From positions 1 through 57,482 of IMG/VR virus record IMGVR_UViG_3300032212_000008: a DNA stretch of 57,482 nucleotides; one strand, 5' to 3'. Every line of letters begins with the position of its first letter. Positions within the stretch are counted from its first letter, which is position 1. The DNA comes from a virus (Duplodnaviria; Caudoviricetes). The translations under genes and the position numbers were made by a program. Below are positions 1,136-49,060 of this stretch, piece by piece. The notes beneath the pieces were generated by a model, which did not search any database, had not been told where the DNA came from, and was given only the letters and a program-made list of their open reading frames with translations.

Positions 1136-2905
1136 TCAGGAGCGGGTGGCTTCGAAGACTTCGGTGGCGATCCCACGCAGGGTCCCGAGCAAGCTCTGCT
1201 CGTCGGGCGTCAGTTGAAGCGACACAAAGACTTTCTTGGTGCCAAGCCTCTCTTTGATGGCTTCAGCGTTCGAAGCGATCCAGTCGCGACGCTCGAAGGC
1301 GTCCTCCTGCCAGTAGTCGTTGCCCGTGGCTTCGTGGAACTCCTCTTGAAGCTCCCCGAAGACCTGAGCCAGAGGCACGGTCCCGCTGTTCGCCATGCGG
1401 CCGATGACCGGGACACAGCCGATGAACAAGAAGAGACCTTGGGGCTTGGGCCCCTTGCGCGCTGTCTTCTTGGCTGCTCGCTTGGTCGTCTTTTTGGTGG
1501 CCTTCGGCTCGGGCTCGGGCTCGGGCTCTTCTTCCTCGGGCTCCTCTTCTTCCTCGGGCTCTTCCTCTTCGGGCTCTTCCTCGGGCTCCTCTTCCTCTTC
1601 GGGCTCGTTCTCTTCGGGCTCAGCAGCCGGGTCGTCCGTAGCGGCGAGGACTTCTTCAGCCTCGTCCTGGCCGTCCCAGGTAAGGACGCCATCCTCGACG
1701 ACAGCGTTGAAGTCTTCAGCGCGCTCGTCGCCGTTTCGCTTGTTGGCAACGTCGCAGACCTTGCAGGGATTGCCGGTGCGCTTGTTGATGCCCGTGCCAC
1801 CGCAAGCGTTGCAGCTTGCGACTGCCCACGGGGCTACCACGGTGCCTTGCTCGGGCTCCGGCTTGGTCTCTTCCTTGCCGCTGGGGCGTCCGATAGGGGC
1901 CTTGGTGGTCGGCTTCGTAGAGGTCTTCTTCTTGGAGGCTTTGTTGGCCTTGGCAAAGGGGGCTGCCATGTCTTTCTGTTTCTTGGGTTGTGCAGTGACG
2001 CCAACGCGTCGCTTGCGGAATTTGCCGAGCATGTCACCCTCGGCGGTATCGGAGGTTTCGTTAGCTCGCATCTCTCGATACTCGCCAACGGTACGAAGGG
2101 CTTTCGTGCAGATTTGAGCGAAGGAACACCCGCCGTATTTGGTGCAAGCATCAGGGGCTTGCATAGCGGGTACCTTCGACCAGTCTTCTTCTTCAATGTC
2201 CGCGTCTCGAAGCGCAAGCATGTCCTTGGCCATGGCTTTGCGCGAGTTTGCGAACCTCGTGATCTCGAACTCTTGGACGTGACCAACAGAGTCTACAGCT
2301 CGCACCGGAACAGGCGAGGCTTTCTCGTTCCTGATGAACTGGTTGTGTCTGAAGATGAGACCTTCAGAAGCGATGCCAATGTCCAACGCTACGAGCCCGT
2401 AGCTCAAGAGCTGCTCGTTGCCCATGATCGACTGCGGCTTCTCCAGGTACTTAGTGCCTCCCGCTGTCTTGCAGTCTTGAATCCGCCACACTCGGCCCTC
2501 GTCGTCGAGGTCCATGATGTCGGGCACCAGCACCTGACGCACGCCAGGAATAAGCTCCATGAAGCGCTTTTCTTCGATGAGCTGCTTGCCGGGCTGGCGT
2601 ACCAGCACGCCTTTTTCTACAGACTGGTCGAAGAGGAACTTGATGCGCTCCATCTCCTCGACGCCCATGACGTGCTTCTGTCCGTGCTCGTCCACGACGT
2701 TCCAGCCGGAAGGGTACAGGTCCGCTTCGTTCTCCGGCGTTGACTTGAGGTACCGCTCCACGACTCCGTGCAGGACGGTGCCGAAGGCTTGGCTGCGCGT
2801 AGTCTTGCGCTTGAGCTTGTGGACACGCTGGAACCACCAAGCTCGTTGGCAGTCCTGCCACTGGCCGAACTGTGTCGGTGACAGATAGAGGTCTTTCTTA
2901 GCCAA
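1136..2905 (-). CDS. Cas4/RecB-like PD-(D/E)XK exonuclease with long C-terminal extension
   Basis: N-terminal SPTQ..W..CQR and FGTVLH, DIMD..IQDCKT, QLLSY, and CTKYGGCSFAQIC (1+3 Cys, Fe-S staple pattern). Followed by a CNAC..CKVC Zn finger and a Glu/Pro repeat. Confidence 0.85.
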   Translation of the reverse strand: MAKKDLYLSPTQFGQWQDCQRAWWFQRVHKLKRKTTRSQAFGTVLHGVVERYLKSTPENEADLYPSGWNVVDEHGQKHVMGVEEMERIKFLFDQSVEKGVLVRQPGKQLIEEKRFMELIPGVRQVLVPDIMDLDDEGRVWRIQDCKTAGGTKYLEKPQSIMGNEQLLSYGLVALDIGIASEGLIFRHNQFIRNEKASPVPVRAVDSVGHVQEFEITRFANSRKAMAKDMLALRDADIEEEDWSKVPAMQAPDACTKYGGCSFAQICTKALRTVGEYREMRANETSDTAEGDMLGKFRKRRVGVTAQPKKQKDMAAPFAKANKASKKKTSTKPTTKAPIGRPSGKEETKPEPEQGTVVAPWAVASCNACGGTGINKRTGNPCKVCDVANKRNGDERAEDFNAVVEDGVLTWDGQDEAEEVLAATDDPAAEPEENEPEEEEEPEEEPEEEEPEEEEEPEEEEPEPEPEPKATKKTTKRAAKKTARKGPKPQGLFLFIGCVPVIGRMANSGTVPLAQVFGELQEEFHEATGNDYWQEDAFERRDWIASNAEAIKERLGTKKVFVSLQLTPDEQSLLGTLRGIATEVFEATRS

Positions 2906-5639
2906 GGTATTCCTTCAGGTAGTCGACGTTGGTCTTGGGGCAGTAGCGCATCAGGTGTTCGAAGGTCTCTTTGTCGACCGCTACGTTGAGGTCAGGGTCG
3001 TTCTTGCAGACCCGATACAGCGAGCCCAGGTCAATGCGAACGCCTGAGATGTTTCGTGCGGTTCCCTGGTTCAACCGAATCGCACGTCCGCTCTGATACA
3101 AGACGCCTGCCTTGTCGAGAGTGTCGAACATGAGCTGGTCGGGGGCCACCCCTCGGGGGAAGCCGAAGATAGCTTCAGGCAGCTTCTTGATGATCGTGGA
3201 GCGCATGATCTGCAGCTGACCCTTGCAAATACCTACGTGCGTCTTGTTCTTCGTGATCGCATGGTCTCGAACGCGCTGCAGCAAGAACTCGATGACCGAG
3301 CGTGCTGTCGTCGAGCGAATGGCCGCGCGGCGCACCGGATCGTTGCTTGTCTCCAGGCCGTCCACCATGAAACGCGAGTGGCTGGGGATCTGGCTGAAGT
3401 CCGCTTGCTCCCTCAACCAGAACAGGTGCTCAGTCGCCTTCTGCAGGATGGTGGGGCGGTGCCCTCCGCATGCCTCGGACAGGAGCATGACCGCTTGCTT
3501 AGCTCTCGGGCCTACGTCGACCATGATGAGCCGCTCGGCCAACGCCTCGGTGTCATCCACGCTCAGGTCTTCGTTGCCGAACAGCGACTCGGCGATGGTG
3601 CCCTTGTTTGAGCAGAAGATGAAGCGGGGATAGACCTCGACGCGGTAGGCGTCCACTCCCTTGCGCTCCATCTTCATCCAGCCGCCTACGACCTTCTCGC
3701 GGAAGAAGGCATCGAAGCGCTTGACGTTGTCAGCTCGCGCGGGGAGGCGCTCGTCGTAGAACCAGACTGGGCAGCTCTGAATCTCGGCGTTGAAGTTTGA
3801 GACACCGATGTCCTGGCAGGGCCCCTTCTTGGTCCACATGTTCGCCACCGCATGCGCGATGAGGGACTTGCCTGAGTGGGCTTGGTGCTGCAGGAGCAAA
3901 CCGGCGATCGGGCGGTCGGCGTAGCTGCAGAACATGAGCCACTTGAAAGCGGCGTCGCTCTCGTCCTCGAACAGTGCTTCCAACCACTGGTGTACTTCGT
4001 CGTGGAACACCGCTGGGATGTCCGTGCGAATCCGGTGGATCGGCAGGCTGAGAGTGAAGCCGCTCTCCTCATCGTAGAACAGTCCGCTCGCTCGCGCGGC
4101 TGAGTAGTGGATGCTGTCGATGTGTCCCGCCGCTCCCAGGCTGTGGAAGTGCTTGGGCTCGACGGCAGGCACGTACTCGCCTCGGCTCTCGATGTAGACC
4201 CCGTAGTTCTCGGCGACCTCGGCAAGCTCGGCCGTCTCCGCGACTCGCGTAACGCACCGGGACCAGTGGCTTTTGTGGGGGTAGTATTCGCCGTTGGGCA
4301 GCAGGAAGTAGCAGTCGTTGGGCGCTCGGCCCACGACAGCCGTTGAAGCCAGGTGTGCCGTCAGGTCGTCGTCGTCCATGTCCCGAGTGATCTCGGGGTT
4401 GTTCCGACGGTAGCTGTCGAACAGTGAGTCCTGGCGCTCTTCGATCTCGCCCTTCGTGACCGCGTACTGGGCCTTGGCTTTCTTGCGGGTGCGCTCGATC
4501 GCGTCGCGGCGCTCCACGGTGCGCGCCCAGAGGCGCTCGATCATGTTCCAGGCCCTGAGCTTCCAGTCGGGGGTGTCCCGGTCGGGCTCCAGCTGGTCCG
4601 TGATCGGCAGGATCAGCCCCAGGGCGTGCTCGGCCTCCGCATCGGGCACCTTCTCGGCAGCCCCGCAAATCGCTCCGATGAGCGACATAAGGGCGGTGTC
4701 CCGGGTGCCGGCCGCGGGGGCCTTGTGCCGGAGGATCTGGGCTCGGGTGCTCTGCCCGGCGTTCTCCAGGAGGGCCTCCCCGACGGGGGTCAGGGGGCGG
4801 GCTCTCTCGCCGCTCCAGACGAGCCCCAGGGCCGTTTCGTCGTCCGGGGCGTCTCCGAGGTCCAAAGCGGCCGCAGGTCCAGCGAGGCCCGCAGCTAGGG
4901 AGCGAGCGAGGCCCGCAGCCTTCTTTGACTTGGACTCGTCGTGCTTGTCCCTGAGCCACCTAGGGTTGATCCGGGGGAGCGCGGCCCCGATCAGCTGGTT
5001 GTGGCTCTCGGCGTGGTCGAGGAACGAGAACCACGCTTGGTCTCCGAGCTGAGCTCCGTCGCGCTGGGCATTGGGGGCCCGGAAGAACCGGGTCCAGTCC
5101 AGGCACCCCAGGTCGATGGGGATGCCGCAGTTGTCGATCAGGTAGTCGACCAGGCCGGAGAGGGCTTGCTCCCCGTCGTCCACAGGCAGGGGCTCGTCCA
5201 GCTCCCAGATGTGTCGGACGCCAGCGCGGGTGGTGTAGCTGTAGCGCGGGGTCAGGTTGTGTTCCGCCAGGATTCCCAGCTGGCGGTTGAGTTCGCCGCG
5301 TGCCTGCTTGGCTGCCTTCCAGGGAGTGTGCTTAGGGTTGTCGTACTCGACGACCATCAAGCCCATCATCGCTTCGAAGTCGTGCTTGCGCCAATCGCTC
5401 AGGCCCCACCCGCGCTTGTTCTTGTGGGGGCCCTCGATGTACTTCGCGACGGGCTGCTTGAGGATGCGAGCGTAGAGTCGCTCTACACCGTTCTGCAGGT
5501 AGTACGTCGCGAAGTGCGCGTCGCAGTCCCACTCTCCGAACAAAACCTCTTCGATGGTGAACCCTTGTTGCTCCCGAGCAACATCGGCGTTCGGCACCGA
5601 GTACGTCTTGATGTGGGGAATGACCGGAAGGTAGTCCAT
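2898..5639 (-). CDS. primase-helicase (prim-pol-like N-terminus plus SF3/D5-like helicase)
   Basis: YTTRAGVRH and DWTRFFRAP primase-like motifs; P-loop QAHSGKS, WFYDE and FCSN; lies in the replication module. The ATG at 5639 is preferred as start. Confidence 0.8.
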   Translation of the reverse strand: MDYLPVIPHIKTYSVPNADVAREQQGFTIEEVLFGEWDCDAHFATYYLQNGVERLYARILKQPVAKYIEGPHKNKRGWGLSDWRKHDFEAMMGLMVVEYDNPKHTPWKAAKQARGELNRQLGILAEHNLTPRYSYTTRAGVRHIWELDEPLPVDDGEQALSGLVDYLIDNCGIPIDLGCLDWTRFFRAPNAQRDGAQLGDQAWFSFLDHAESHNQLIGAALPRINPRWLRDKHDESKSKKAAGLARSLAAGLAGPAAALDLGDAPDDETALGLVWSGERARPLTPVGEALLENAGQSTRAQILRHKAPAAGTRDTALMSLIGAICGAAEKVPDAEAEHALGLILPITDQLEPDRDTPDWKLRAWNMIERLWARTVERRDAIERTRKKAKAQYAVTKGEIEERQDSLFDSYRRNNPEITRDMDDDDLTAHLASTAVVGRAPNDCYFLLPNGEYYPHKSHWSRCVTRVAETAELAEVAENYGVYIESRGEYVPAVEPKHFHSLGAAGHIDSIHYSAARASGLFYDEESGFTLSLPIHRIRTDIPAVFHDEVHQWLEALFEDESDAAFKWLMFCSYADRPIAGLLLQHQAHSGKSLIAHAVANMWTKKGPCQDIGVSNFNAEIQSCPVWFYDERLPARADNVKRFDAFFREKVVGGWMKMERKGVDAYRVEVYPRFIFCSNKGTIAESLFGNEDLSVDDTEALAERLIMVDVGPRAKQAVMLLSEACGGHRPTILQKATEHLFWLREQADFSQIPSHSRFMVDGLETSNDPVRRAAIRSTTARSVIEFLLQRVRDHAITKNKTHVGICKGQLQIMRSTIIKKLPEAIFGFPRGVAPDQLMFDTLDKAGVLYQSGRAIRLNQGTARNISGVRIDLGSLYRVCKNDPDLNVAVDKETFEHLMRYCPKTNVDYLKEYLG

Positions 5640-5656
5640 CGTTTCACAAGGCAAGG

Positions 5657-5687: not shown

Positions 5688-5735
5688 TAGTGCGCTAGGC
5701 GCACTCCCTTACCCTCACTGCAGCGCAGCGAGAGA

Positions 5736-5807: not shown

Positions 5808-5829
5808 GGGTGAGGGTAAGGGTTGTCGG

Positions 5830-9577: not shown

Positions 9578-9823
9578 TTATTTGATGCCTGCGGCTCTGT
9601 AGTCGATGCCTTCGGGGTTGAGGGTAAGGGGTGATGTTTCGCGAATGTAGACGGGTCGGGGGAGAGGGGGAGGTGCCTGCTCTTGTTGTTCCTTGAGTCG
9701 ACGGATCTCCTCCCGCAACTCGAGGATCTCTCGTCGATCTTTACGTGCTTGGTTTTCCTGAAGTACGAGGCTGAAGAGCGCAAAGCAAACAGCGCCGATG
9801 GCGAGTTTGTGGTGGGGCTTCAA
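9578..9823 (-). CDS. small membrane-anchored coiled-coil protein
   Basis: N-terminal hydrophobic helix, then a charged helix and a Pro-rich tail. Confidence 0.65.
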   Translation of the reverse strand: MKPHHKLAIGAVCFALFSLVLQENQARKDRREILELREEIRRLKEQQEQAPPPLPRPVYIRETSPLTLNPEGIDYRAAGIK

Positions 9824-14572: not shown

Positions 14573-15013
14573 CTAGCGAGCCTCCGACTTCTTGATCTCG
14601 ACGAACGCCTTGACGCTCACGCGACCTTTGACGATCAGCTCTTCCGGCGGGTTGGTCGCCTTGTAGAGACCCTTGGCTTCCGCCTGGATGCGACTGCCGC
14701 GCGCGGCGCGTTGAGCGCGGGAGCGCTTGTTGTGCGTGCTCACCAGCTCTTCAAGGATCGTCTGATCGTCGCCGTATACCTGCGACGCCAGCGCGCTCAC
14801 CGCATCGGCCAACAAAGCCCAAGGGTCCGCGCTCGTTTCCTGTTTGCGCGTGTGGTCCTTGCCTACCTTCATCTCTCCTACCACTCGGAGAGTCGTATCG
14901 AACTCATAGTCCCCCGGGAGGATGAGTCCGCGCGCTGCCTTGCGCTTCGCTTCGCTGTACGTTTTGGGGAGGGCGAGGACGGTAACGGCCTCGGTCCTGG
15001 TCATGCTCGACAT
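14573..15013 (-). CDS. hypothetical protein
   Basis: Directly downstream of the predicted promoter; C-rich leader. Confidence 0.75.
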   Translation of the reverse strand: MSSMTRTEAVTVLALPKTYSEAKRKAARGLILPGDYEFDTTLRVVGEMKVGKDHTRKQETSADPWALLADAVSALASQVYGDDQTILEELVSTHNKRSRAQRAARGSRIQAEAKGLYKATNPPEELIVKGRVSVKAFVEIKKSEAR

Positions 15014-15062
15014 GGTTCAGTGGGGTAAGGGTCTCCCTGGATCGCTCCAGGTGGGTGCTAGA

Positions 15063-15092
15063 AGCCTAGGCGCTTCTAGGGTTGGGTGTCAA
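15063..15092 (-). promoter_or_regulatory. sigma70-type promoter TTGACA-N18-TAGGCT, overlapped by an 8-bp inverted repeat (CTAGAAGC/GCTTCTAG)
   Basis: Consensus -35 at 15092-15087 and -10 at 15068-15063 in an intergenic gap. Confidence 0.6.
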
Positions 15093-15102
15093 GGGGTGTC
15101 TC

Positions 15103-15330
15103 CTACCAGAGACCGGTACCCCAGCCAATCACGCCAGCCGTGCAACCGGCCACTGTTAGAACGGCGGCGATGCAGACAAAGCGAAGAGTGAACTTCCACA
15201 TGGCTTCAATTTGCTTCGTGGAGCGCTTTACGGCGTCCTTGGTCACCTGGGTCTTCAACTCTTCCGGCAGCTCGGAGAACTTGAGGCGAGGAAGGTCGAT
15301 CGGGATTTCGGGATCTTGAGGTTGGGTCAT
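15103..15330 (-). CDS. small membrane protein
   Basis: Start MTQPQD; C-terminal hydrophobic helix. Confidence 0.6.
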   Translation of the reverse strand: MTQPQDPEIPIDLPRLKFSELPEELKTQVTKDAVKRSTKQIEAMWKFTLRFVCIAAVLTVAGCTAGVIGWGTGLW

Positions 15331-15332
15331 CG

Positions 15333-15422
15333 TTACAGCAGGCAGAGGGTCAGGAACACGTAGCCTAGGACGAGAAGGCCCCCTAGGCGTAGGCCGTTGG
15401 CGACGGTTTGGGCGGGTGTCAT
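15333..15422 (-). CDS. 29-aa membrane peptide MTPAQTVANGLRLGGLLVLGYVFLTLCLL
   Basis: ATGA overlap with the upstream stop; fills the gap exactly; not in the ORF track. Confidence 0.5.
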   Translation of the reverse strand: MTPAQTVANGLRLGGLLVLGYVFLTLCLL

Positions 15423-15679
15423 CGGTTCGCCTTCTGGAAGCGCTCAATGGCTTCCTCTTTGAGCGTGTCTCGGAAGCGTTCGACGAGTCCGGCAGGGCTG
15501 GACACTAAGTCAATGCCCCACCACTCGCAAACACGCTGCATGTTCGCATCGTCCTGGGGCTCGATGTCCAGCTCGGCCGTGATGTTCTCGACCTCGTAGT
15601 TCTTGCCCTCCTCGCCCCAGTCTTCATCGAAGACGTCGGCGGTGAAGTGGAGGCCGTCGCGGTGCCATTCAACTTGCAT
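15419..15679 (-). CDS. acidic hypothetical protein
   Basis: AAGGAG RBS, operon packing. Confidence 0.7.
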   Translation of the reverse strand: MQVEWHRDGLHFTADVFDEDWGEEGKNYEVENITAELDIEPQDDANMQRVCEWWGIDLVSSPAGLVERFRDTLKEEAIERFQKANR

Positions 15680-16040
15680 TGGTGCTCTCCTTCAGCTCTT
15701 CGGCTAGGTCTTTGAGGAAGTCGCCGTGTAACACGTACTCGCGCACTTCGTCGTCGGGCGTTCCGTCAAGCATGGCCTCGAATGCGTTGTATGGGGACAG
15801 CATTGCGATTCTAGTCCGTCGTTTGGCTTCGATCGCGTCTTCTTCGATAGCGCAGATACTGTGGTACACGGCGCAGGCCATATCAGAGCCAGGGATGCGC
15901 TCGGACGTGCCATCGGCAAAGCGATACTCTGCCGGGCCTCTAGACGGGCGTGTGATGGCCACTAGCTGGCGGGTGGTGCCGTCTGGGTGCCTAAACTCGA
16001 ATGTCTGCCCTTCGGGCATCCTTGCGTATAGGGTGCCCAT
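15669..16040 (-). CDS. hypothetical protein
   Basis: GGAGG RBS, operon packing. Confidence 0.7.
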   Translation of the reverse strand: MGTLYARMPEGQTFEFRHPDGTTRQLVAITRPSRGPAEYRFADGTSERIPGSDMACAVYHSICAIEEDAIEAKRRTRIAMLSPYNAFEAMLDGTPDDEVREYVLHGDFLKDLAEELKESTNAS

Positions 16041-16043
16041 GAC

Positions 16044-16412
16044 TTAGCCCTCCGAGGCTTCGGTGATTTGCTTGCCGTACTTGGCCGCGAGTCTCTCGGC
16101 CATCTCGGTACGATTGCGGATCATGGTGGGCATGTGAACACCTAGGCCGATGGTGGTGCCTTCCTTGTCGAGGTAGATCGCGCAACCGGAGGAATACACC
16201 TGGACCTCGCCGTCTTCCTTGGCCTTCTCGTAGATCACGACGTGGTTGTCTAAGGAGCCCAGCGCGAACGCGTGTACGAAACCGTAGTCGACGGTCGAGT
16301 TACTCAGCAAGCCCTTGACGTGGTTTGAGTTCAAGCCTCGGCGCGTGGTAGGTAGCTCGGCCTCGGTGACGATCCAGACAATCTCACCCTCCAGAACCTT
16401 ATACGGCTCCAT
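16044..16412 (-). CDS. hypothetical protein
   Basis: GGAG RBS, operon packing. Confidence 0.7.
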   Translation of the reverse strand: MEPYKVLEGEIVWIVTEAELPTTRRGLNSNHVKGLLSNSTVDYGFVHAFALGSLDNHVVIYEKAKEDGEVQVYSSGCAIYLDKEGTTIGLGVHMPTMIRNRTEMAERLAAKYGKQITEASEG

Positions 16413-16653
16413 AGTAAGCTCCGGGCTTGCGGTTGCTGGGGTCGTGCTCGGTGACGTACATGCGTTGGAGCGAGCCGTTCTCTACCCCGTTGTCTAGGAT
16501 GCGCGTTAGGTGTCGGATATCCGAAAGCCTGCGGTTCAGGTCGGCGCGGTGGAAGAGCTCCCCCTTCCTGACCTTGAACCAGTCGTCAACCTCGAGCTGC
16601 TCGGAGATTAGGCCCTTTAAGTGTTCGGGGGTTTTGGGATGTGCTTGGTTCAT
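16399..16653 (-). CDS. hypothetical protein
   Basis: ATGA overlap. Confidence 0.6.
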   Translation of the reverse strand: MNQAHPKTPEHLKGLISEQLEVDDWFKVRKGELFHRADLNRRLSDIRHLTRILDNGVENGSLQRMYVTEHDPSNRKPGAYYGAV

Positions 16654-16895
16654 TTGGCGTTGGGGTCTTTGGTGGTGACGGTGAGGGTGAATGGTGAGTC
16701 AATCTCGATTCGCTCTCCTCTATAACGCGCGACGTAATCAGGGGCCTCGTTGGCCACGGTTTGAACGATCTTCCGGGCTGCGTCCGTGGCTTCGGCGTTG
16801 TCGTCCGCAGCGATCTTGTAGTGGTCGATCACCCTGCCGTCGGACATTAGCGTCTTACCGTTCGAGTGCTCTATCGTGATCCAGTAGTCAGGCAC
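16650..16895 (-). CDS. hypothetical protein
   Basis: AGGAG RBS, GTG start. Confidence 0.65.
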   Translation of the reverse strand: MPDYWITIEHSNGKTLMSDGRVIDHYKIAADDNAEATDAARKIVQTVANEAPDYVARYRGERIEIDSPFTLTVTTKDPNAK

Positions 16896-17139
16896 GGGTG
16901 ATTCTCCTGCGTTTGCGAGCGTTCGAGCCCGCGCGGTTCTTGAGGGGTACCAAGCGCCCGCCTAGGCGCTTGCGTCGTTTGGGCGTGCGTGGCGTCATCG
17001 AGGCCCGAAAGAGCACCACTAGGCGTGCTTCTAGACCTGTCACGTCTATAGGCACAAGAATCGGGGCGAGCGGCTCTCGGTCGATTACCGGAAGGTCTCT
17101 AACCTCCCCCGGTATTTTCGTCTGAGCTCGGACCCTCAC
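16888..17139 (-). CDS. small basic hypothetical protein
   Basis: GTGA overlap at 17139; Arg/Lys-rich C-terminus. Confidence 0.45.
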   Translation of the reverse strand: MRVRAQTKIPGEVRDLPVIDREPLAPILVPIDVTGLEARLVVLFRASMTPRTPKRRKRLGGRLVPLKNRAGSNARKRRRITRA

Positions 17140-17321
17140 AACGCGAGTCCTAGGGCCTTGAGTGCCCAAGCTGCTCCGAAGCCGAAGCACGCCCCTGCGG
17201 CGAAGGCTAGGACCGACATACGGATAAGGGATCGAGTTAGGGCGGCGTCGGCGTCTTTGAGTTCTTCGGCTACGGGTGCCCACTCGATCAGAGGGTCGGG
17301 GTCGGGTCCTACGGGTTTCAT
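17136..17321 (-). CDS. small membrane protein
   Basis: Start MKPVG; C-terminal TM segment. Confidence 0.6.
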   Translation of the reverse strand: MKPVGPDPDPLIEWAPVAEELKDADAALTRSLIRMSVLAFAAGACFGFGAAWALKALGLAL

Positions 17322-17325
17322 CGTG

Positions 17326-17643
17326 TCACCAGTCAAAGGTGGGGAACGCGGGGCAGACGTCCGCGTCCGCGTCGAAGTCAACCCACCGAAAGCCTTGAGC
17401 GTGTGCCTCTTTGATGATCGCGGCGACGGGTCCGGGCAGCTTGTCTAGACACTTCTCGGTGCCGTCGAAAGCTCCGACGAGTACGCGCCCCCCGTAATCG
17501 TGGGGCTTGTAGGCCGGCCCTAGCGTGGTCTGTAGTGCTTCGCACGTCCCCAAACCAGGCCAGTGCGCCGTTGATAGCGCGAGGGTGCGCTCGGTCCAGG
17601 GCCCTAGGTCGATGTCGGGCGCTTCGGATTGCTCGGTGTCCAT
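17326..17643 (-). CDS. DUF5983-like hypothetical protein
   Basis: LSTAH...GFRWVDFDADA...PTFDW pattern, recognised from memory. Confidence 0.6.
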   Translation of the reverse strand: MDTEQSEAPDIDLGPWTERTLALSTAHWPGLGTCEALQTTLGPAYKPHDYGGRVLVGAFDGTEKCLDKLPGPVAAIIKEAHAQGFRWVDFDADADVCPAFPTFDW

Positions 17644-17688
17644 GCTTGGAGGGTAAGGGTAAGGGGTTCCAGGGTGCGACCCCGGGAG

Positions 17689-17756
17689 GGCTCGTCAGGC
17701 ACGGGGCGACCGTGCGACCGAGGGGGCGACGCTTGTTGTGCCCCCTCGGTTTCGCC
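17689..17756 (-). ncRNA. hammerhead ribozyme, type II topology
   Basis: Minus strand reads GGC-GAAAC-CGAGGGGGC-loop-GCCCCCUCG-GUC/GCACGG-UCGCC-CCGUGC-CUGACGA-GCC. All core nucleotides and stems I, II and III are present, and the site is intergenic. Confidence 0.88.
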
Positions 17757-17877
17757 GGGCGAGTGCGTACTCTCGCCTAGCTGCCGGGGTCTCCTAGGTC
17801 CCGGCGATTTACCTCCCGCGTCCCCACGGGAGGCTCCCACCGAACGCGGCCCTAGAGCCGCCCTCGATATCGTGTTT

Positions 17878-18489
17878 CTAGTTGTCCCAGGCTTCCAGCT
17901 CGCAGTGGTCGACCCAAGCCTCGGCGGCCTTCGCGGCCCTAGCCAGCGCTTCGCGCAGACCGTCCACCTTGGATAGCGCTTGTTGCTTGCCGTAGGCGGC
18001 GCACTCCTTACGTAAGTCGGCGCCTAGCTCCTGGCCTTCGGGCGTGTCGTTGAGCCAGTGGCACAACCCATCAACGGCTACGTTGATAAAGCGCTCTTCG
18101 GCGTCGGTGAAGTGGTCGAAGTCCGAGCCATACTGGGATGCCCACTGCCCCTTTTCCTTTTGATACTCGGGCCTGACGTGGTGTCGCCCTGACGGATCAA
18201 TGCGTCGGTAGGTTTCCAGCTCCACGTCGCCGGAGCGCTTCGGTAGCGTCGCTTCGATCTGGATATTGACCTCGGGATAGGGCCACGCCTCGCGGAAGCG
18301 TGCGCCGTTGTTGGGGGCGTTGGGGTCGGCTAGGCGCTTGTCGGGGTCGAACACCTCGGACATGCCCGGATGTAGCGTGAACTCGACCGTGCCTTTTGTT
18401 TGGGTCGTGGATTGGACGTAGGCCCGGATGGTCGTGCCTTGCTCGTCGCGCGAGGTGTCGGTGAGGGTCCAGGAGGATTGATCGGTCAT
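17878..18489 (-). CDS. early hypothetical protein (start MTDQSS)
   Basis: Shares the ACCGATCCG-ATG leader with the neighbouring gene. Confidence 0.75.
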   Translation of the reverse strand: MTDQSSWTLTDTSRDEQGTTIRAYVQSTTQTKGTVEFTLHPGMSEVFDPDKRLADPNAPNNGARFREAWPYPEVNIQIEATLPKRSGDVELETYRRIDPSGRHHVRPEYQKEKGQWASQYGSDFDHFTDAEERFINVAVDGLCHWLNDTPEGQELGADLRKECAAYGKQQALSKVDGLREALARAAKAAEAWVDHCELEAWDN

Positions 18490-18529
18490 CGGATCGGTAG
18501 GGATGGAGTGTGAGGGTGGAGGGTAAGGG

Positions 18530-19258
18530 CTAGGCTTTGAGAGACACTTCGACTTGAGAGAAGAACGGGCTCGGGTCGAACGGTCCCCCGAAGCGTTCCT
18601 GGAACTCGCGGGCGAACTTGGCATCGGTCAAGCACTGGAGCACTTCGGCCGGGTCGATGCCGTGCTTGAGTGCTTCCAGTGCTCCCTTGTTGTGTGCGCT
18701 GGCTTCCTCGTTAGCATCGTTCGGGTTGAAGTAGACCGTGCGCTCGGTGGGGTCTGCGTCGTCGCAGTGCGCCAAGGACCGCGAGTGCGCCAAGTCGTGG
18801 AAGAACCAAACCGCGTTGGTTGTTTCTACGTGTAGCTCCAGGGTCTCGGGGATCTGGACCCTGCCTGGCGCGTCGTCCACGTCTTCGAAGATCGCGAGTA
18901 AGGCAATCAGCCCGTCAGCGCTGGAGAACTCCCATTCGTCGCCCCGGTCTAGGTGCTGGACTTCCTCGGCTAGGTACCTTGCGGTATGGGTCCTTCTCAG
19001 ATCCTCGGACCCGTTCAGGTAGTCCTCCCCGCACAGGGCCGAGACGACTTCGCTTCCGCCTACGGCTTGCTGAGACAAGCGCCAAGGGAAGAACGCACGT
19101 AGCGCACCTTTGCCGGTCCTGGACGTGTCGGGCGTGCTCAACGTGTAGTGGCAAGCGCCCAAGAGCTCGGCGCTGTCGTCGTAAGGGTCGGACTCGATCG
19201 TAACCTTGAGGGTGCGCCGGTTGTCGTGGAACGGGAGCGTCAGGTTATAGGTGTTCAT
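18530..19258 (-). CDS. early hypothetical protein (start MNTYN), first gene of the leftward operon
   Basis: ACCGATCCG-ATG leader; adjacent to the non-coding control region. Confidence 0.75.
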   Translation of the reverse strand: MNTYNLTLPFHDNRRTLKVTIESDPYDDSAELLGACHYTLSTPDTSRTGKGALRAFFPWRLSQQAVGGSEVVSALCGEDYLNGSEDLRRTHTARYLAEEVQHLDRGDEWEFSSADGLIALLAIFEDVDDAPGRVQIPETLELHVETTNAVWFFHDLAHSRSLAHCDDADPTERTVYFNPNDANEEASAHNKGALEALKHGIDPAEVLQCLTDAKFAREFQERFGGPFDPSPFFSQVEVSLKA

Positions 19259-19312
19259 CGGATCGGTGGGATAGGAGGGAGGGAGGGAGCGACGCGCGCC
19301 GCTCGCACACAC

Positions 19313-19349
19313 ACTATAACGGCCGGAAGCGGCAATAGTTGCCAACTAT
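19313..19349 (-). promoter_or_regulatory. putative early promoter (-10 TATAGT) with overlapping palindrome ATAGTTG-C-CAACTAT (operator-like)
   Basis: TATAGT lies about 55 bp upstream of the first ATG; perfect 7-1-7 palindrome at 19335-19349; no well-spaced -35. Confidence 0.45.
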
Positions 19350-19627
19350 CTTAGGTTTCTTCGCAAACCCCTCGAGGGTGATTCGCCGTAAGTCGTTTGG
19401 AGACCAGGGGATATGCTAGAAAAACAGGTAGGCTTCCAGAGGGGGTCCGCTATTCCTTAAGTTCTGGGAGGTACTTAGTAGGGTACTATTGTTTTACTGA
19501 GGAATCGCCCCTTTTTTTCTTCTGGTATGGATGCATAAAGTGTCGTAAGTGACGTGGTCGTAAGGGTTTAGGCGGCGGAGGCGAAATGGCTTGGGTGTCA
19601 AGGTGCCGTCGGAGTGCCGGGAAAGTT

Positions 19628-19662
19628 CCGTGGAACATATGCATAATTATGATGTTCCACGG
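19628..19662. repeat. near-perfect 35-bp AT-cored palindrome
   Basis: CCGTGGAACAT-atg-CATAATTATG-ATGTTCCACGG. Confidence 0.85.
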
Positions 19663-19824
19663 TGCATATCGTGCATATTTATGCATGCTCCCATACAATG
19701 CGCTAACATGCATTAGTAGGAGACTATTCCCAGCTATTAGAACGTTACTAAGTCGACCGCCCCGCCGGGTTCTGTAAGGGTATACCCTACGGGGCGTATC
19801 TATAGTGCGCTACTGTAGTTGAGC

Positions 19825-19929
19825 CCCGATGCGCGGCGTGCGGATGGTCGGGACAACGGACGTTGTGGGGCGGATGGTTGGGGTGCCGATGGATGTGGTG
19901 ACGATAATCGTGGTGACGATAGTTGTCTT
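19825..19929. repeat. seven degenerate 15-bp tandem units
   Basis: For example GCGGATGGTCGGGAC, GCGGATGGTTGGGGT, GCCGATGGATGTGGT, GACGATAATCGTGGT. Confidence 0.6.
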
Positions 19930-19983
19930 TACGCAGTGCTTACCCGCCCCGGCCCACCCTACCAACAAAAAATCAAACCCCCA

Positions 19984-20136
19984 TTTTTCTCCGAGCCTCT
20001 ATTTCCGTTCTATTTCCGAGACGTGCTCGATTCCTTCATTTCCGTTCTATTTCCGGACGAACCCTCGTTTTTTCTCCAAGCCTCTATTTCCGTTCTATTT
20101 CCGTATCTCTATTTCTGCATCTATTTCCTTCTATTT
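19984..20136. repeat. TCTATTTCCG iteron-like repeats, including a duplicated unit of about 35 bp
   Basis: TTTTTCTCC(G/A)AGCCTCTATTTCCGTTCTATTTCCG occurs twice, plus further TCTATTTC copies. Confidence 0.9.
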
Positions 20137-20219
20137 AGGTGTAAACCTTTCGGGACCCAGGGCGTCAACCTTTCTCTTGACTCTTGCTTCTCTGGCCACT
20201 AGGCGTTAGACACGCGAGA

Positions 20220-21335
20220 ATGCCTTTCGACAACCACTCCAACGATGAGCTCGATGCCCTGGGGGACACGTTCGCCTTCGCTCGTGAAGAGGCGCCGATC
20301 TCTCGCCGTAAGTCCTCCGTGGTGAGGGAGGCGGCACATCAGATCTCCCGGGCGCTGAGCGTCCGTGACATGGCTGAGGGGGACGCGCACTCTCGAGCGG
20401 TCTTCTTGGCGTGGCGGTACGCTCGCTGGGCTCTGCAAGCGTCGGGGTGGGCTCAACCAGGCGAGGCCTTTATCTTCTCCTGCGACACTCTCGCCAAGCT
20501 GCCGAACAACCCCTGCTTCGGAAAGCCGATGGGTCCGTGGGGTGTCGAATTGCCTCGGAGGCCGAGCGCGCAGCTCAACCTGAGCACACCGGGGCTTCCG
20601 ACGACGCATCGGATAATGCACCGGTTCGGCGCGGGATTCTTCGTGTCGCCCCCCGATCCCCTGGACTCGAAGGCGACGCACCGCGAGGCGTTCTGTCACC
20701 TCATGCACGCGGCGGTTAGGAGCCTCGGGCTCGACGCACCGACGAAGGAATCTCTCAAGGCGGGCATCTACAGGATCTCCCCGTTCCACTTGCTGCCCGA
20801 TCACCCGTACTACTCTCAGGAGGCGTACGAGCACGTAGCTGACGTTTACCCGAGCTATGAGGAGATTCTCGAGTTCGAGCAGGAGTTCCTGACGGACTGT
20901 GCGGAGGCGATCATCCGCCGAACGGAGGACGGTCTCCGTCGGTGGCTCATCAAGCGCTACTCGATGTCGACCTACGAGGCAACATCGATCACGGCAACGG
21001 CCAAGGCCTGGGGGGCCTCGATGCGACCGGTGGATATCGAGGTGGAGCGCTCAACCCACCTCCGACTCCTGGACCATGCGGGGCAAGAGGCAGCCGACAA
21101 CGGGGATTACAGGGCCCTAATCATGGCCTCGACCCAGGCAAGCCGTATCCTTGGCCTGGCCCAACACAGTCCCGCTGACGAGAATCAAGAAGCTCTCGCA
21201 GCAGCTGGAGAGGCCCACCAAGACCTCATCAACGCCCCCGAGGGCGAGGATGGTCTAATCGACGAACCGATCGACCGCACCGCATGGAAGGGGCGCTCGA
21301 TCGACACCTCCGCTAAGCGAACCCCTCAACAGTAG
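20220..21335 (+). CDS. hypothetical protein, possible terminase small subunit
   Basis: First gene of the TerL operon, next to the repeat region; C-terminal helical GDYRA..ASRILGL motif resembles TerS; unusually long (371 aa). Confidence 0.45.
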   Translation: MPFDNHSNDELDALGDTFAFAREEAPISRRKSSVVREAAHQISRALSVRDMAEGDAHSRAVFLAWRYARWALQASGWAQPGEAFIFSCDTLAKLPNNPCFGKPMGPWGVELPRRPSAQLNLSTPGLPTTHRIMHRFGAGFFVSPPDPLDSKATHREAFCHLMHAAVRSLGLDAPTKESLKAGIYRISPFHLLPDHPYYSQEAYEHVADVYPSYEEILEFEQEFLTDCAEAIIRRTEDGLRRWLIKRYSMSTYEATSITATAKAWGASMRPVDIEVERSTHLRLLDHAGQEAADNGDYRALIMASTQASRILGLAQHSPADENQEALAAAGEAHQDLINAPEGEDGLIDEPIDRTAWKGRSIDTSAKRTPQQ

Positions 21336-47848: not shown

Positions 47849-47871
47849 GTTGGGTTGTCTGCTGAGGGATA

Positions 47872-47910
47872 GAAAAAGGGCCTCCGAGGCCGTGTTTCCT
47901 CGGAGGCCCT
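47872..47910 (-). terminator. intrinsic terminator after the major capsid gene
   Basis: 13-bp perfect IR AGGGCCTCCGAGG / CCTCGGAGGCCCT with a U tract on the minus strand. Confidence 0.85.
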
Positions 47911-47932
47911 AGGGATCAAACGTCTTGAGGGA

Positions 47933-49060
47933 TCAGCCCGAGACGACCTTCGCGCGGCCCCAGACGTTGGGGCGACGCGGGAAGGGAAGGGGAGCGGACT
48001 GAAGGTAACCCTCGACGCCCCGGCCCTTCGACATCATCTCCATGTCGGCGAAGCGGCGGATGGGGACCGCTCCGGCGTTCTGGAGGGACTCGAAGGTCGG
48101 GTTCTCGGATCCGGTGGTGAGCTTGAGGTTCGGGATGGCCCCGTAGTTGAACTCGAACTCGGTGCGAGGCGCGGTCGACAGCCAGTAGGCGTACTTGGGC
48201 TCGATGACGTCGTAGGTGGTACCGTCGGGAGCCACGAGCTGCTGCCCGTACTCCCAGACGTCTTTGCCTCGCCAGCGTCCCAGGTACCGCGCCTGGGCGT
48301 CAGTGAACTGGCGCTGCAACTCCAACGTGCCGGTGTTGATGTTCCGGTTGTCGAGCTTGCTCGCGAGCTTGGTGTTCTCCTCGAAGGCGTCGGCAGCTTC
48401 AGGGCCCAGCAGGATGGTGTCGGGCTGGATTTGCGAGGAGCGCGAGAGCGCCCGGCAGAGAGTGCGGTCGACTTCAGCCGGATCGTGGTCGCTGACTCCA
48501 GAGGTTGCGTCGTCCCAGAACTCGCTGGTGAGCGTGAGGTCCAGCGTCGAGTCGTGCGGGATGGTGACCGTGAACGCCGACCCGTCGGGGTCGGAGTAGT
48601 CGATCACCCAACGAAGCATCTGGGAGACTTCCCATTCTTCGAGGTTGTCGACTTGGTAGGTCAGCTCTTCGAATTCGCCGGCAACGTGACGTGCCAGAGC
48701 GGCACGACGACCTTCGTCGCCGTAGAGCGAAGCCCCCGCGCGACGGACGAACATCAGATCCGAAGGCGTCATGCCTCGGGAGATGTTGACCTGCGGGGCC
48801 TTGACAGCGCGGAAGGTCGTGGTGCGGCCGGAGACCTGGCGAGGCTCGGCTTCGATCGAACCAAAGGGAGCGATCTGCTTCGAGTTCGAGACGATCGCCA
48901 GTTCGAAGGTTTCGGTGGAGCGCAGCTCCTCGCGGAACGGAAGGAGGTTCCGAAGGAAGCTGATCTGCGGGTCGACCTCGTTGACGACGCCCGACAGGGT
49001 GACGTAGTTGAGTTCGGGGACCAGCTCGGAACCCTGCGCGGCAGACGGTGCGGGCGACAT
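47933..49060 (-). CDS. major capsid protein (lambda gpE-like)
   Basis: FLRNLLP, IAPF, EEWEVSQML, QSAPLPFP motifs; 375 aa; follows the decoration gene. Confidence 0.92.
   Translation of the reverse strand: MSPAPSAAQGSELVPELNYVTLSGVVNEVDPQISFLRNLLPFREELRSTETFELAIVSNSKQIAPFGSIEAEPRQVSGRTTTFRAVKAPQVNISRGMTPSDLMFVRRAGASLYGDEGRRAALARHVAGEFEELTYQVDNLEEWEVSQMLRWVIDYSDPDGSAFTVTIPHDSTLDLTLTSEFWDDATSGVSDHDPAEVDRTLCRALSRSSQIQPDTILLGPEAADAFEENTKLASKLDNRNINTGTLELQRQFTDAQARYLGRWRGKDVWEYGQQLVAPDGTTYDVIEPKYAYWLSTAPRTEFEFNYGAIPNLKLTTGSENPTFESLQNAGAVPIRRFADMEMMSKGRGVEGYLQSAPLPFPRRPNVWGRAKVVSG

What the first reader, a model, noticed from the sequence alone, without database searches (positions are those of the whole stretch)
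17681..17760. Intact hammerhead ribozyme embedded in the early operon
Seen: on the transcribed (minus) strand, the gap between ORFs 17878 and 17643 contains every hammerhead core nucleotide. These are C-GAAA-C (17754-17749), an 11-bp stem III, the GUC cleavage triplet (17718-17716), a 6-bp stem I with UCGCC loop, CUGACGA (17698-17692), and a short open stem II (GGC/GCC). The open stem II makes it type II. Predicted cleavage is between 17716 and 17715, 72 nt before the ATG of the DUF5983-like gene. Known: hammerheads occur in bacterial and phage sequences, mostly without a known role. Inference: the phage cuts its own early polycistronic mRNA without host RNases. That would give the downstream cistrons a 5'-OH hairpin end and decouple them from the first two genes.
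Basis: partly seen in the sequence, partly recalled or inferred. Interest (0 to 1): 0.9.

Follow-up and report, generated by a model that had tools for sequence, protein, structure and literature searches.

The report
Ordinary type II hammerhead in phage
The gap between two same-direction phage genes carries a complete, well-folded type II hammerhead self-cleaving RNA motif, one more member of a class that is very common between phage genes.

Summary
These are stem II GGC/GCC, GAAA, an 11-bp stem III, GUC, a 6-bp stem I with loop UCGCC, and CUGACGA. The predicted cut lies between 17716 and 17715, 72 nt before the ATG of the DUF5983 gene.

It is not a chance match. My descriptor finds this one site in the window. 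In 1500 dinucleotide shuffles, 0 hits reached comparable stems and 12 were weak.

Rfam Hammerhead_II scores it 20.4 bits, below the cut-off of 37, with E 0.0035 for the genome. The same model also leaves all 10 matches it lists in five multi-hammerhead phage loci below the cut-off. A model built from 113 other viral type II hammerheads scores the site 45.8 bits, E 3e-11; the next best in the window is 10.7 bits.

Such hammerheads typically sit between same-strand genes.

No related locus was found, so covariation at this site, cleavage and biological role remain untested.

Verdict: a new member of a known kind. The proposed mRNA processing role is the one already suggested in print. Interest is low.

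The parts
17754..17756 (-). Stem II, 3' strand (G11.3 G11.2 C11.1), pairs with 17689-17691
   Evidence: Read directly. Aligned to the Rfam and R1 consensus. Three pairs found by the descriptor.
17751..17753 (-). Core G12 A13 A14
17717..17750 (-). Stem III hairpin: 17750-17740 pairs with 17727-17717 (11 pairs, A15.1-U16.1 next to the core), 12-nt loop 17739-17728
   Evidence: Pair probabilities are 0.81-1.0 in 131-nt and 241-nt contexts.
17716..17716 (-). C17. The predicted cut is 3' of this base, between 17716 and 17715.
   Evidence: Position follows from the hammerhead consensus alignment. Cleavage itself is not shown.
17699..17715 (-). Stem I hairpin: GCACGG / CCGUGC, 6 pairs, loop UCGCC (17709-17705)
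   Evidence: Pair probabilities are 0.95 or more in the longer contexts. A 17-nt stem I hairpin is the commonest length among viral type II hammerheads, 44 of 200 descriptor hits.
17692..17698 (-). Core C3 U4 G5 A6 C7 G8 A9 (CUGACGA)
17689..17691 (-). Stem II, 5' strand (G10.1 C10.2 C10.3)
   Evidence: The fourth position is a C-C mismatch, flagged in the alignment.
17757..17877 (-). 121-nt spacer between the stop of the upstream ORF and the hammerhead. It holds several GC-rich hairpins, including GGCGAG/CUCGCC at 17777-17758.
   Evidence: The flanks are not significantly structured when the hammerhead is held fixed: z -1.58, and 22 of 400 shuffles are as stable.
17326..17643 (-). Downstream gene, 105 aa, DUF5983. 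The ATG lies 45 nt after the 3' end of the hammerhead.
17878..18624 (-). Upstream ORF on the same strand. Its likely true start is the ATG at 18489.

Best explanation
The site is a genuine type II hammerhead self-cleaving ribozyme. It belongs to the short-loop form that is abundant between phage genes, with a 6-bp stem I, a 5-nt loop and a 3-4-bp open stem II.

How it most likely works:
1. Any minus-strand transcript running from the two upstream genes into the DUF5983 gene folds stems III and I as it is made (shown by folding only).
2. The short stem II closes the three-way junction.
3. The RNA cuts itself after C17716. This leaves a 2',3'-cyclic phosphate just after the 11-bp stem III hairpin on the upstream piece. 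The downstream piece gets a 5'-OH on G17715, the first base of the stem I hairpin (chemistry recalled from general hammerhead knowledge).
4. Only the 3-bp stem II must hold the two products together, so they should part readily.

Inferred consequence: the upstream and downstream cistrons become separate RNAs with hairpin-capped new ends. Their stability and translation are then uncoupled.

Shown here: the motif, its fold, its statistical standing and the family-typical placement. Inferred: transcription across the site, cleavage and the effect on expression.
For: - All 13 conserved core bases and the three helices are present, with standard pairs next to the core. These are the acceptance rules stated in PMC3088659 (methods passage).
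- The descriptor finds one hit in the window. In 1500 shuffles, 0 hits were of comparable quality and 12 were weak.
- Rfam RF02276 is the only ribozyme family that matches the gap. Its E-value is 0.00345 per genome.
- Model R1 was built from 113 non-redundant viral type II hammerheads without this site. It scores the site 45.8 bits, E 3.4e-11, against 10.7 bits for the next best of 39 listed matches.
- In 58 separately fetched loci, R1 gives 104 matches of 24-60.6 bits. Of these, 68 score above 45.8 and 36 below.
- Stem lengths are family-typical. A 3-bp stem II occurs in 83 of 200 viral descriptor hits, an 11-bp stem III in 7 of 200, and a 17-nt stem I hairpin in 44 of 200. One viral hammerhead in L027 has the identical stem I.
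- The hammerhead fold is the minimum-energy structure of the 76-nt core. Stems I and III persist in longer contexts.
- Family context: of 113 viral type II hammerheads, 93 have a same-strand ORF start within 60 nt downstream and 81 have a frame ending within 20 nt upstream. The opposite-strand control gives 28 and 18.
- This site lies in the only large gap of a tightly packed minus-strand gene array.
- No intrinsic-terminator-like site was found in the gap.
Against: - The Rfam score of 20.4 bits is below the gathering cut-off of 37.
- No related locus was found anywhere. Conservation and covariation at this site are therefore untested.
- The loop I to 3'-tail pseudoknot, which most type II hammerheads have (PMC3088659), is absent. 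The only 5-nt complement to loop I lies in the 5' flank, and chance gives such a match in 596 of 5000 shuffles. High-speed cleavage at cellular Mg2+ is therefore not assured.
- In 131-nt and 241-nt contexts, stem II has a predicted probability of 0.002-0.016. An alternative GCU/GGC pairing is favoured by 2.1-3.5 kcal/mol.
- The site stands 121 nt from the upstream stop codon. The family median is 2 nt and the 90th percentile about 101 nt.
- R1's training set was gathered with a pattern taken from this site's own core and stem II, which inflates its score somewhat.
- A repeated motif between the hammerhead and the ATG could be a promoter. That would change what cleavage achieves.
Confidence: 0.75

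Rival explanations
1. The hammerhead is real, but its job is to make a 3' end rather than to release downstream cistrons. The DUF5983 gene would be transcribed from its own promoter lying between the ribozyme and the ATG. The ribozyme would then trim read-through from the two upstream genes and leave them a hairpin-capped 3' end.
For: - The 12-mer CCCTTACCCTCC, or a copy with one mismatch, occurs 5 times in the window: 5706+, 5811-, 9619-, 17648- and 18518-. Each copy lies upstream of a gene and in its orientation. One lies 5 nt before the DUF5983 ATG.
- With up to 2 mismatches there are 12 matches, against a mean of 4.45 in shuffles. None of 100 shuffles reached 12.
- The copies at 5706+ and 5811- sit in a divergent intergenic region.
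Against: - Nothing shows that the motif is a promoter. No sigma-70-like site was found in 15000-21000.
- The copy at 9619 lies inside a plausible coding frame.
- The distance from motif to start codon varies from 5 to about 44 nt, or 157 nt to the start listed for ORF 2898-5654.
- Most family members sit 13-30 nt before a start codon with no room for a promoter.
Confidence: 0.15
2. The sequence has the hammerhead motif but is a weakly active or inactive copy with no role. Examples would be a leftover of gene-cassette exchange, or a copy kept in an inactive fold.
For: [quoted passage not shown]
- Stem II is out-competed in long contexts.
- It is the only hammerhead in this genome, whereas many viral contigs carry 2-6.
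Against: - Every core base and all core-adjacent pairs are intact. A decaying copy would be expected to lose them.
- Minimal hammerheads without tertiary contacts still cleave in vitro (recalled).
Confidence: 0.07
3. The match is chance. Two GC-rich hairpins, for example terminator-like or RNase III sites, happen to be flanked by hammerhead-like letters.
For: - The region is 73% G+C and rich in hairpins.
- The Rfam score is below the cut-off.
- At E up to 10, the same Rfam model matches in 11 of 14 large control genomes, none over the cut-off.
Against: - 0 of 1500 shuffles gave a hit of comparable quality.
- E is 0.00345 per genome with Rfam and 3.4e-11 with R1.
- Neither hairpin is followed by a T-run, and no terminator-like site was called in the gap.
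Confidence: 0.03

Closest known systems
Type II hammerhead ribozymes of bacteria, prophages and phages (Perreault et al. 2011, PMC3088659; Rfam RF02276)
   Same: It has the same core, the same permuted topology (stems I and III capped, stem II open) and a short stem II. It sits between same-strand small genes. Its stem I hairpin is 17 nt, as in the commonest viral form.
   Different: - It lacks the loop I to 3'-tail pseudoknot of the Rfam consensus form.
- Stem III is long: 11 pairs with a 12-nt loop.
- It stands 121 nt from the upstream stop codon instead of abutting it.
- It is a single copy in its genome.
- It scores below Rfam's cut-off, as did all 10 matches listed for five other phage loci.
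HHphage of haloviruses HF1/HF2 (described in PMC3088659, passage read)
   Same: It is a hammerhead in a virus gene block described as early. It lies a short distance upstream of a gene in a polycistronic transcript. A mapped 5' end lies within 3 nt of the cut.
   Different: HHphage has an atypical core with insertions and is tied to high salt. The present site has a fully canonical core, and no RNA-end data exist for it.
Twister ribozymes in bacterial and phage gene neighbourhoods (PMC6765202, passage read)
   Same: They are self-cleaving RNAs found near the same kinds of genes, with the same proposed role in cutting mRNAs.
   Different: The fold is unrelated. No twister or other ribozyme family matched the window.
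Engineered hammerhead 'insulators' placed in front of genes (recalled from memory; not checked in any call)
   Same: Cleavage gives the downstream gene a fixed 5' leader that begins with a hairpin, whatever lies upstream.
   Different: Those are synthetic parts. This site is natural and untested.

Membership tests
Hammerhead ribozyme, type II | Conserved core C3 U4 G5 A6 N7 G8 A9, G12 A13 A14, A15.1, U16.1, H17 | tested here: met
   All present: CUGACGA at 17698-17692, GAA at 17753-17751, A17750, U17717 and C17716 (consensus alignments).
Hammerhead ribozyme, type II | Three helices around the core, with no mispair next to the core (10.1-11.1, 1.1-2.1, 15.1-16.1) | tested here: met
   The three core-adjacent pairs are G-C, G-C and A-U. 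The stems have 3, 6 and 11 pairs without bulges.
Hammerhead ribozyme, type II | Type II topology: stems I and III closed by loops, stem II open | tested here: met
   The order along the strand is stem II 3' strand, GAAA, stem III hairpin, C17, stem I hairpin, CUGACGA, stem II 5' strand.
Hammerhead ribozyme, type II | Score at or above Rfam RF02276's curated cut-off of 37 bits. This is an operational threshold of one model, not a biochemical property. | tested here: not met
   The score is 20.4 bits. For calibration, the 10 RF02276 matches listed in five phage loci with clustered hammerheads score 21.4-33.6 bits, none over the cut-off. The threshold therefore excludes this short-loop form in general.
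Hammerhead ribozyme, type II | Significant match to a profile of independent family members | tested here: met
   R1, built from 113 viral type II hammerheads, gives 45.8 bits and E 3.4e-11. The next best in the window is 10.7 bits. The score falls within the 24-60.6 bit range of 104 matches in 58 other loci. Caveat: the training set was collected with a pattern taken from this site.
Hammerhead ribozyme, type II | [quoted passage not shown] A pseudoknot between loop I and the 3' tail is seen in most type II members, but it is not universal: about 40% of all hammerheads have one according to PMC3088659. | tested here: not met
   No complement to loop I lies in the 3' tail. The 5-nt complement at 17777-17773 is in the 5' flank and is within chance, 596 of 5000 shuffles.
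Hammerhead ribozyme, type II | Conservation and compensatory changes in orthologous loci | not testable with these tools
   No relative of the flanking genes or of the gap was found in the phage, viral, genome or metagenome collections.
Hammerhead ribozyme, type II | Site-specific, Mg2+-dependent self-cleavage giving 2',3'-cyclic phosphate and 5'-OH ends | not testable with these tools
   No listed sequencing run that holds this DNA is on record as RNA. A bench assay is needed.

The most novel reading that the evidence does not exclude
The ribozyme could be a conditional cutter. In long transcripts the stem II 3' strand (GGC 17756-17754) is predicted to pair with an upstream GCU, clamped around the hairpin at 17777-17758. 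The 5' arm of that hairpin (GGCGA) is also complementary to loop I. Cleavage might then depend on what opens this upstream structure, for example ribosomes finishing the upstream gene or the speed of transcription. That would tie the split of the operon to upstream expression, in a phage whose genes in this block have pyrimidine-rich leaders without a Shine-Dalgarno sequence.
Probability: 0.07. Interest if true: 0.5.

Novelty: new member of a known kind. Interest (0 to 1): 0.2.

Why it matters
The site adds one canonical hammerhead to a class already known in thousands of copies, so it changes little.

Two modest points remain:
- Rfam's type II model, at its curated threshold, missed this site. 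It also missed every match it listed in five other phage loci. Routine annotation may therefore under-count the short-loop, pseudoknot-free form that dominates my viral sample.
- The biological purpose of phage hammerheads is still undefined (PMC6765202). A lone, fully canonical copy in the single large gap of a compact operon is a simple test case for what cleavage does to the two halves of a phage transcript. The host of this phage is unknown, which limits that use.

Tried and rejected
**Search for relatives, to test covariation.** None of these gave a related locus:
- blastn of 17300-18700 against phage records: no match.
- tblastn of the DUF5983 protein against phage records: only a 32%-identical hit in Sphingobium phage Lacusarx.
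- tblastn of the upstream protein against phage records: none.
- The search for related loci with the two flanking proteins, with the two-sequence DUF5983 alignment and with the major head protein, in viral, genome and metagenome contigs: none confirmed.
- The search for homologous proteins: one 68%-identical protein, whose DNA could not be fetched.
- tblastn of the three neighbouring proteins against all 178 fetched loci (L003-L180): none. blastn of the gap against the same loci gave only two short matches within the hammerhead itself.

**Expression.** The look-up of sequencing runs listed one DNA run, a microbial mat metagenome that may be the source. No RNA holder was listed.

**Other ribozymes.** The whole-window Rfam search at E up to 10 gave four weak, unrelated matches.

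**Flank structure.** An outer helix (17790-17784 with 17685-17679) and a hairpin next to stem II appear in the fold. With the hammerhead held fixed they are not significant: z -1.58, and 22 of 400 shuffles are as stable. The 5-nt complement to loop I arises by chance in 596 of 5000 shuffles. I rejected both as evidence for an extended stem II or a pseudoknot.

**Gene association.** I took the 86 complete downstream ORFs found for the 113 viral hammerheads. Their mean length is 125 aa. Only 7 Pfam families matched any of them, and none was DUF5983. There is no recurrent link between hammerheads and this gene family.

**Terminator reading.** No terminator-like site was called in the gap.

**Supplements.** Paper supplements were closed. 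The alignments and figures S4-S6 of PMC3088659 might show whether the short-loop form was already described and assayed.

Full report
**What the window is.** The window is a complete 57,482-bp virus record with direct terminal repeats and about 61% G+C. It carries recognisable terminase, portal, major head, tail and DNA polymerase genes. It has no close relative among known phages: the major head protein is at most about 26% identical to any phage record.

The finding lies in a 234-nt gap on the minus strand. On one side is an ORF ending at 17878. On the other is a 105-aa DUF5983 gene starting at 17643. The neighbouring minus-strand ORFs downstream abut or overlap one another, so this is the one large gap in a co-directional array. 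'Early' is a guess based on small unknown genes next to an A+T-richer divergent region. Nothing tested it.

**The observation.** The cut would fall between 17716 and 17715, 72 nt before the ATG.

**Is it chance?**
- A descriptor I wrote for type II hammerheads finds exactly one hit on both strands of the window, at this site.
- In 1500 dinucleotide-preserving shuffles of the window it found 12 weak hits. None had stems of at least 6/3/6 pairs or 20 pairs in total. The real site has 6/3/11.
- Rfam's Hammerhead_II model aligns the site correctly at 20.4 bits. E is 0.075 for the 301-nt search against all families and 0.00345 for this one family over the genome.
- No family reaches its gathering score anywhere in the window.
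- A permissive scan of the whole window shows no other ribozyme.

**Why the Rfam score is low.** Many of these carry 2-6 copies. My descriptor finds 200 hits in 110 of the 120 loci.

The commonest stem I hairpin length is 17 nt (44 of 200), as at this site. Stem II has 3 pairs in 83 and 4 pairs in 94 of 200. Stem III reaches 11 or more pairs in 15 of 200. Printed side by side, the 17-nt group shows a 6-pair stem I with a 5-nt loop and no room for the loop-to-tail pseudoknot. One member, in L027, has the same stem I as this site.

The Rfam consensus has a 10-nt loop I. When five such multi-hammerhead phage loci were scanned with Rfam, the 10 Hammerhead_II matches listed scored 21.4-33.6 bits, all under the cut-off of 37. 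The sub-threshold score is therefore a property of this form, not a mark against this site.

**An independent profile.** The descriptor hits reduced to 194 distinct anchors. Of these, 164 passed my filters and 113 remained after near-duplicates were removed. I aligned the 113, derived the consensus pairs from each sequence's own stems and built model R1.

With filters off, R1 scores the site 45.8 bits, E 3.4e-11. The next best of 39 listed matches in the window is 10.7 bits.

On 58 loci fetched separately from metagenome and genome contigs, R1 finds 104 matches of 24-60.6 bits. Of these, 68 score above 45.8 and 36 below. Some of those loci are duplicates of one another, so the 104 are not all independent.

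Caveat: both locus sets were gathered with patterns taken from this site's own core and core-adjacent pairs. The R1 score is therefore somewhat flattered. The Rfam E-value and the shuffles carry no such bias.

**Folding.** The 76-nt core folds into the hammerhead secondary structure as its minimum-energy state, -37.6 kcal/mol. In 131-nt and 241-nt contexts, stems III and I keep probabilities of 0.81-1.0. The 3-pair stem II loses to an upstream GCU/GGC pairing. The hammerhead fold is 2.1-3.5 kcal/mol above the minimum, and the energy model ignores the tertiary structure of the core.

The 121-nt region as a whole is more stable than its shuffles: z -3.4, with 1 of 200 shuffles folding at least as well. 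With the hammerhead held fixed, however, the flanks are not significantly structured: z -1.58, and 22 of 400 shuffles are as stable. The 5-nt complement to loop I in the 5' flank is expected by chance in 596 of 5000 shuffles. I therefore claim no extended stem II and no pseudoknot. The tertiary contact that makes many hammerheads fast (PMC3088659) is not identified here.

**Context in the family.** Of the 113 viral hammerheads:
- 93 have a same-strand ORF of at least 60 aa (at least 30 aa if it runs off the end of the locus) starting within 60 nt downstream.
- 81 have an open frame ending within 20 nt upstream.
- 67 have both.

On the opposite strand the numbers are 28, 18 and 3. Median distances are 26 nt and 2 nt.

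This site has 45 nt downstream and 121 nt upstream. It has the usual orientation and a typical downstream distance, but an unusually long upstream spacer.

For 86 of the 113 I found a complete downstream ORF. These are small (mean 125 aa) and mostly without a family. None is DUF5983. This agrees with the statement in PMC3088659 that the flanked genes are not constant.

**How it most likely works.** A minus-strand transcript crossing the gap folds the ribozyme and cuts itself after C17716. The upstream RNA then ends one base after an 11-pair GC-rich hairpin, with a cyclic phosphate. The downstream RNA begins with a 5'-OH at the first base of a 6-pair hairpin, 72 nt before the DUF5983 start codon. 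Only the 3-pair stem II must hold the products together, so they should separate.

That such ends slow exonucleases and 5'-end-dependent RNases is recalled general knowledge, not tested here. The idea that phage hammerheads cut long transcripts into gene- or operon-length mRNAs was proposed in 2011 (PMC3088659). A 2019 review still called it unproven (PMC6765202).

**Rivals.**
- A repeated 12-mer upstream of five genes, one copy lying between the ribozyme and the ATG, may mark promoters. The ribozyme would then mainly define the 3' end of the upstream unit.
- The copy may be slow or idle.
- A pure chance match is very unlikely.

**What could not be done.** No RNA run was listed. Covariation at this locus, cleavage and role remain open.

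**Verdict.** The site is a canonical type II hammerhead of the kind that is very common between phage genes. It is a new member of a known kind, of low interest, and its function is inferred rather than shown.

Noticed in passing
window 5706-5717 (+), 5811-5822 (-), 9619-9630 (-), 17648-17659 (-), 18518-18529 (-): The 12-mer CCCTTACCCTCC, or a copy with one mismatch, occurs five times. Each copy lies upstream of a gene and in its orientation. Two copies sit in a divergent intergenic region. With up to 2 mismatches there are 12 matches, against a mean of 4.45 in shuffles (0 of 100 shuffles reach 12). It could be a phage promoter or a leader element.
   Followed up: partly
window 17644-17670, 18490-18530, 19259-19300 (minus strand): The three consecutive genes have pyrimidine-rich leaders (CCCUCC, CCCUUACCCUCC) with no purine-rich Shine-Dalgarno sequence. 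The two upstream genes share the same CCGATCCGATGA start context.
   Followed up: no
loci L026, L027, L046, L073, L041: Rfam RF02276 at its cut-off of 37 bits detects none of the clustered type II hammerheads in these phage loci. The 10 listed matches score 21.4-33.6 bits, and some descriptor-positive copies are not listed at all.
   Followed up: partly
loci L018, L040, L022, L164, L170: Some viral and metagenome contigs carry 5-7 type II hammerheads within a few kilobases, one before each small gene.
   Followed up: no
window 47864-47938 (-): There is a weak match to the alphaproteobacterial sRNA family suhB/mmgR (25 bits, cut-off 41, E 0.58), starting 6 nt before the end of the major head gene. 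It is probably just a hairpin.
   Followed up: no
loci L174-L180: Genome contigs with the same core-adjacent pattern come mostly from Alphaproteobacteria: Sphingopyxis, Inquilinus, Chelatococcus, Devosia and Hyphomicrobium. The only phage hit for the DUF5983 protein is a Sphingobium phage. This is a faint hint at the host group and nothing more.
   Followed up: no
window, whole: No tRNA genes were found. Several large proteins have no family match: 534 aa, 549 aa, and a 918-aa protein with only a DUF5906 match.
   Followed up: no
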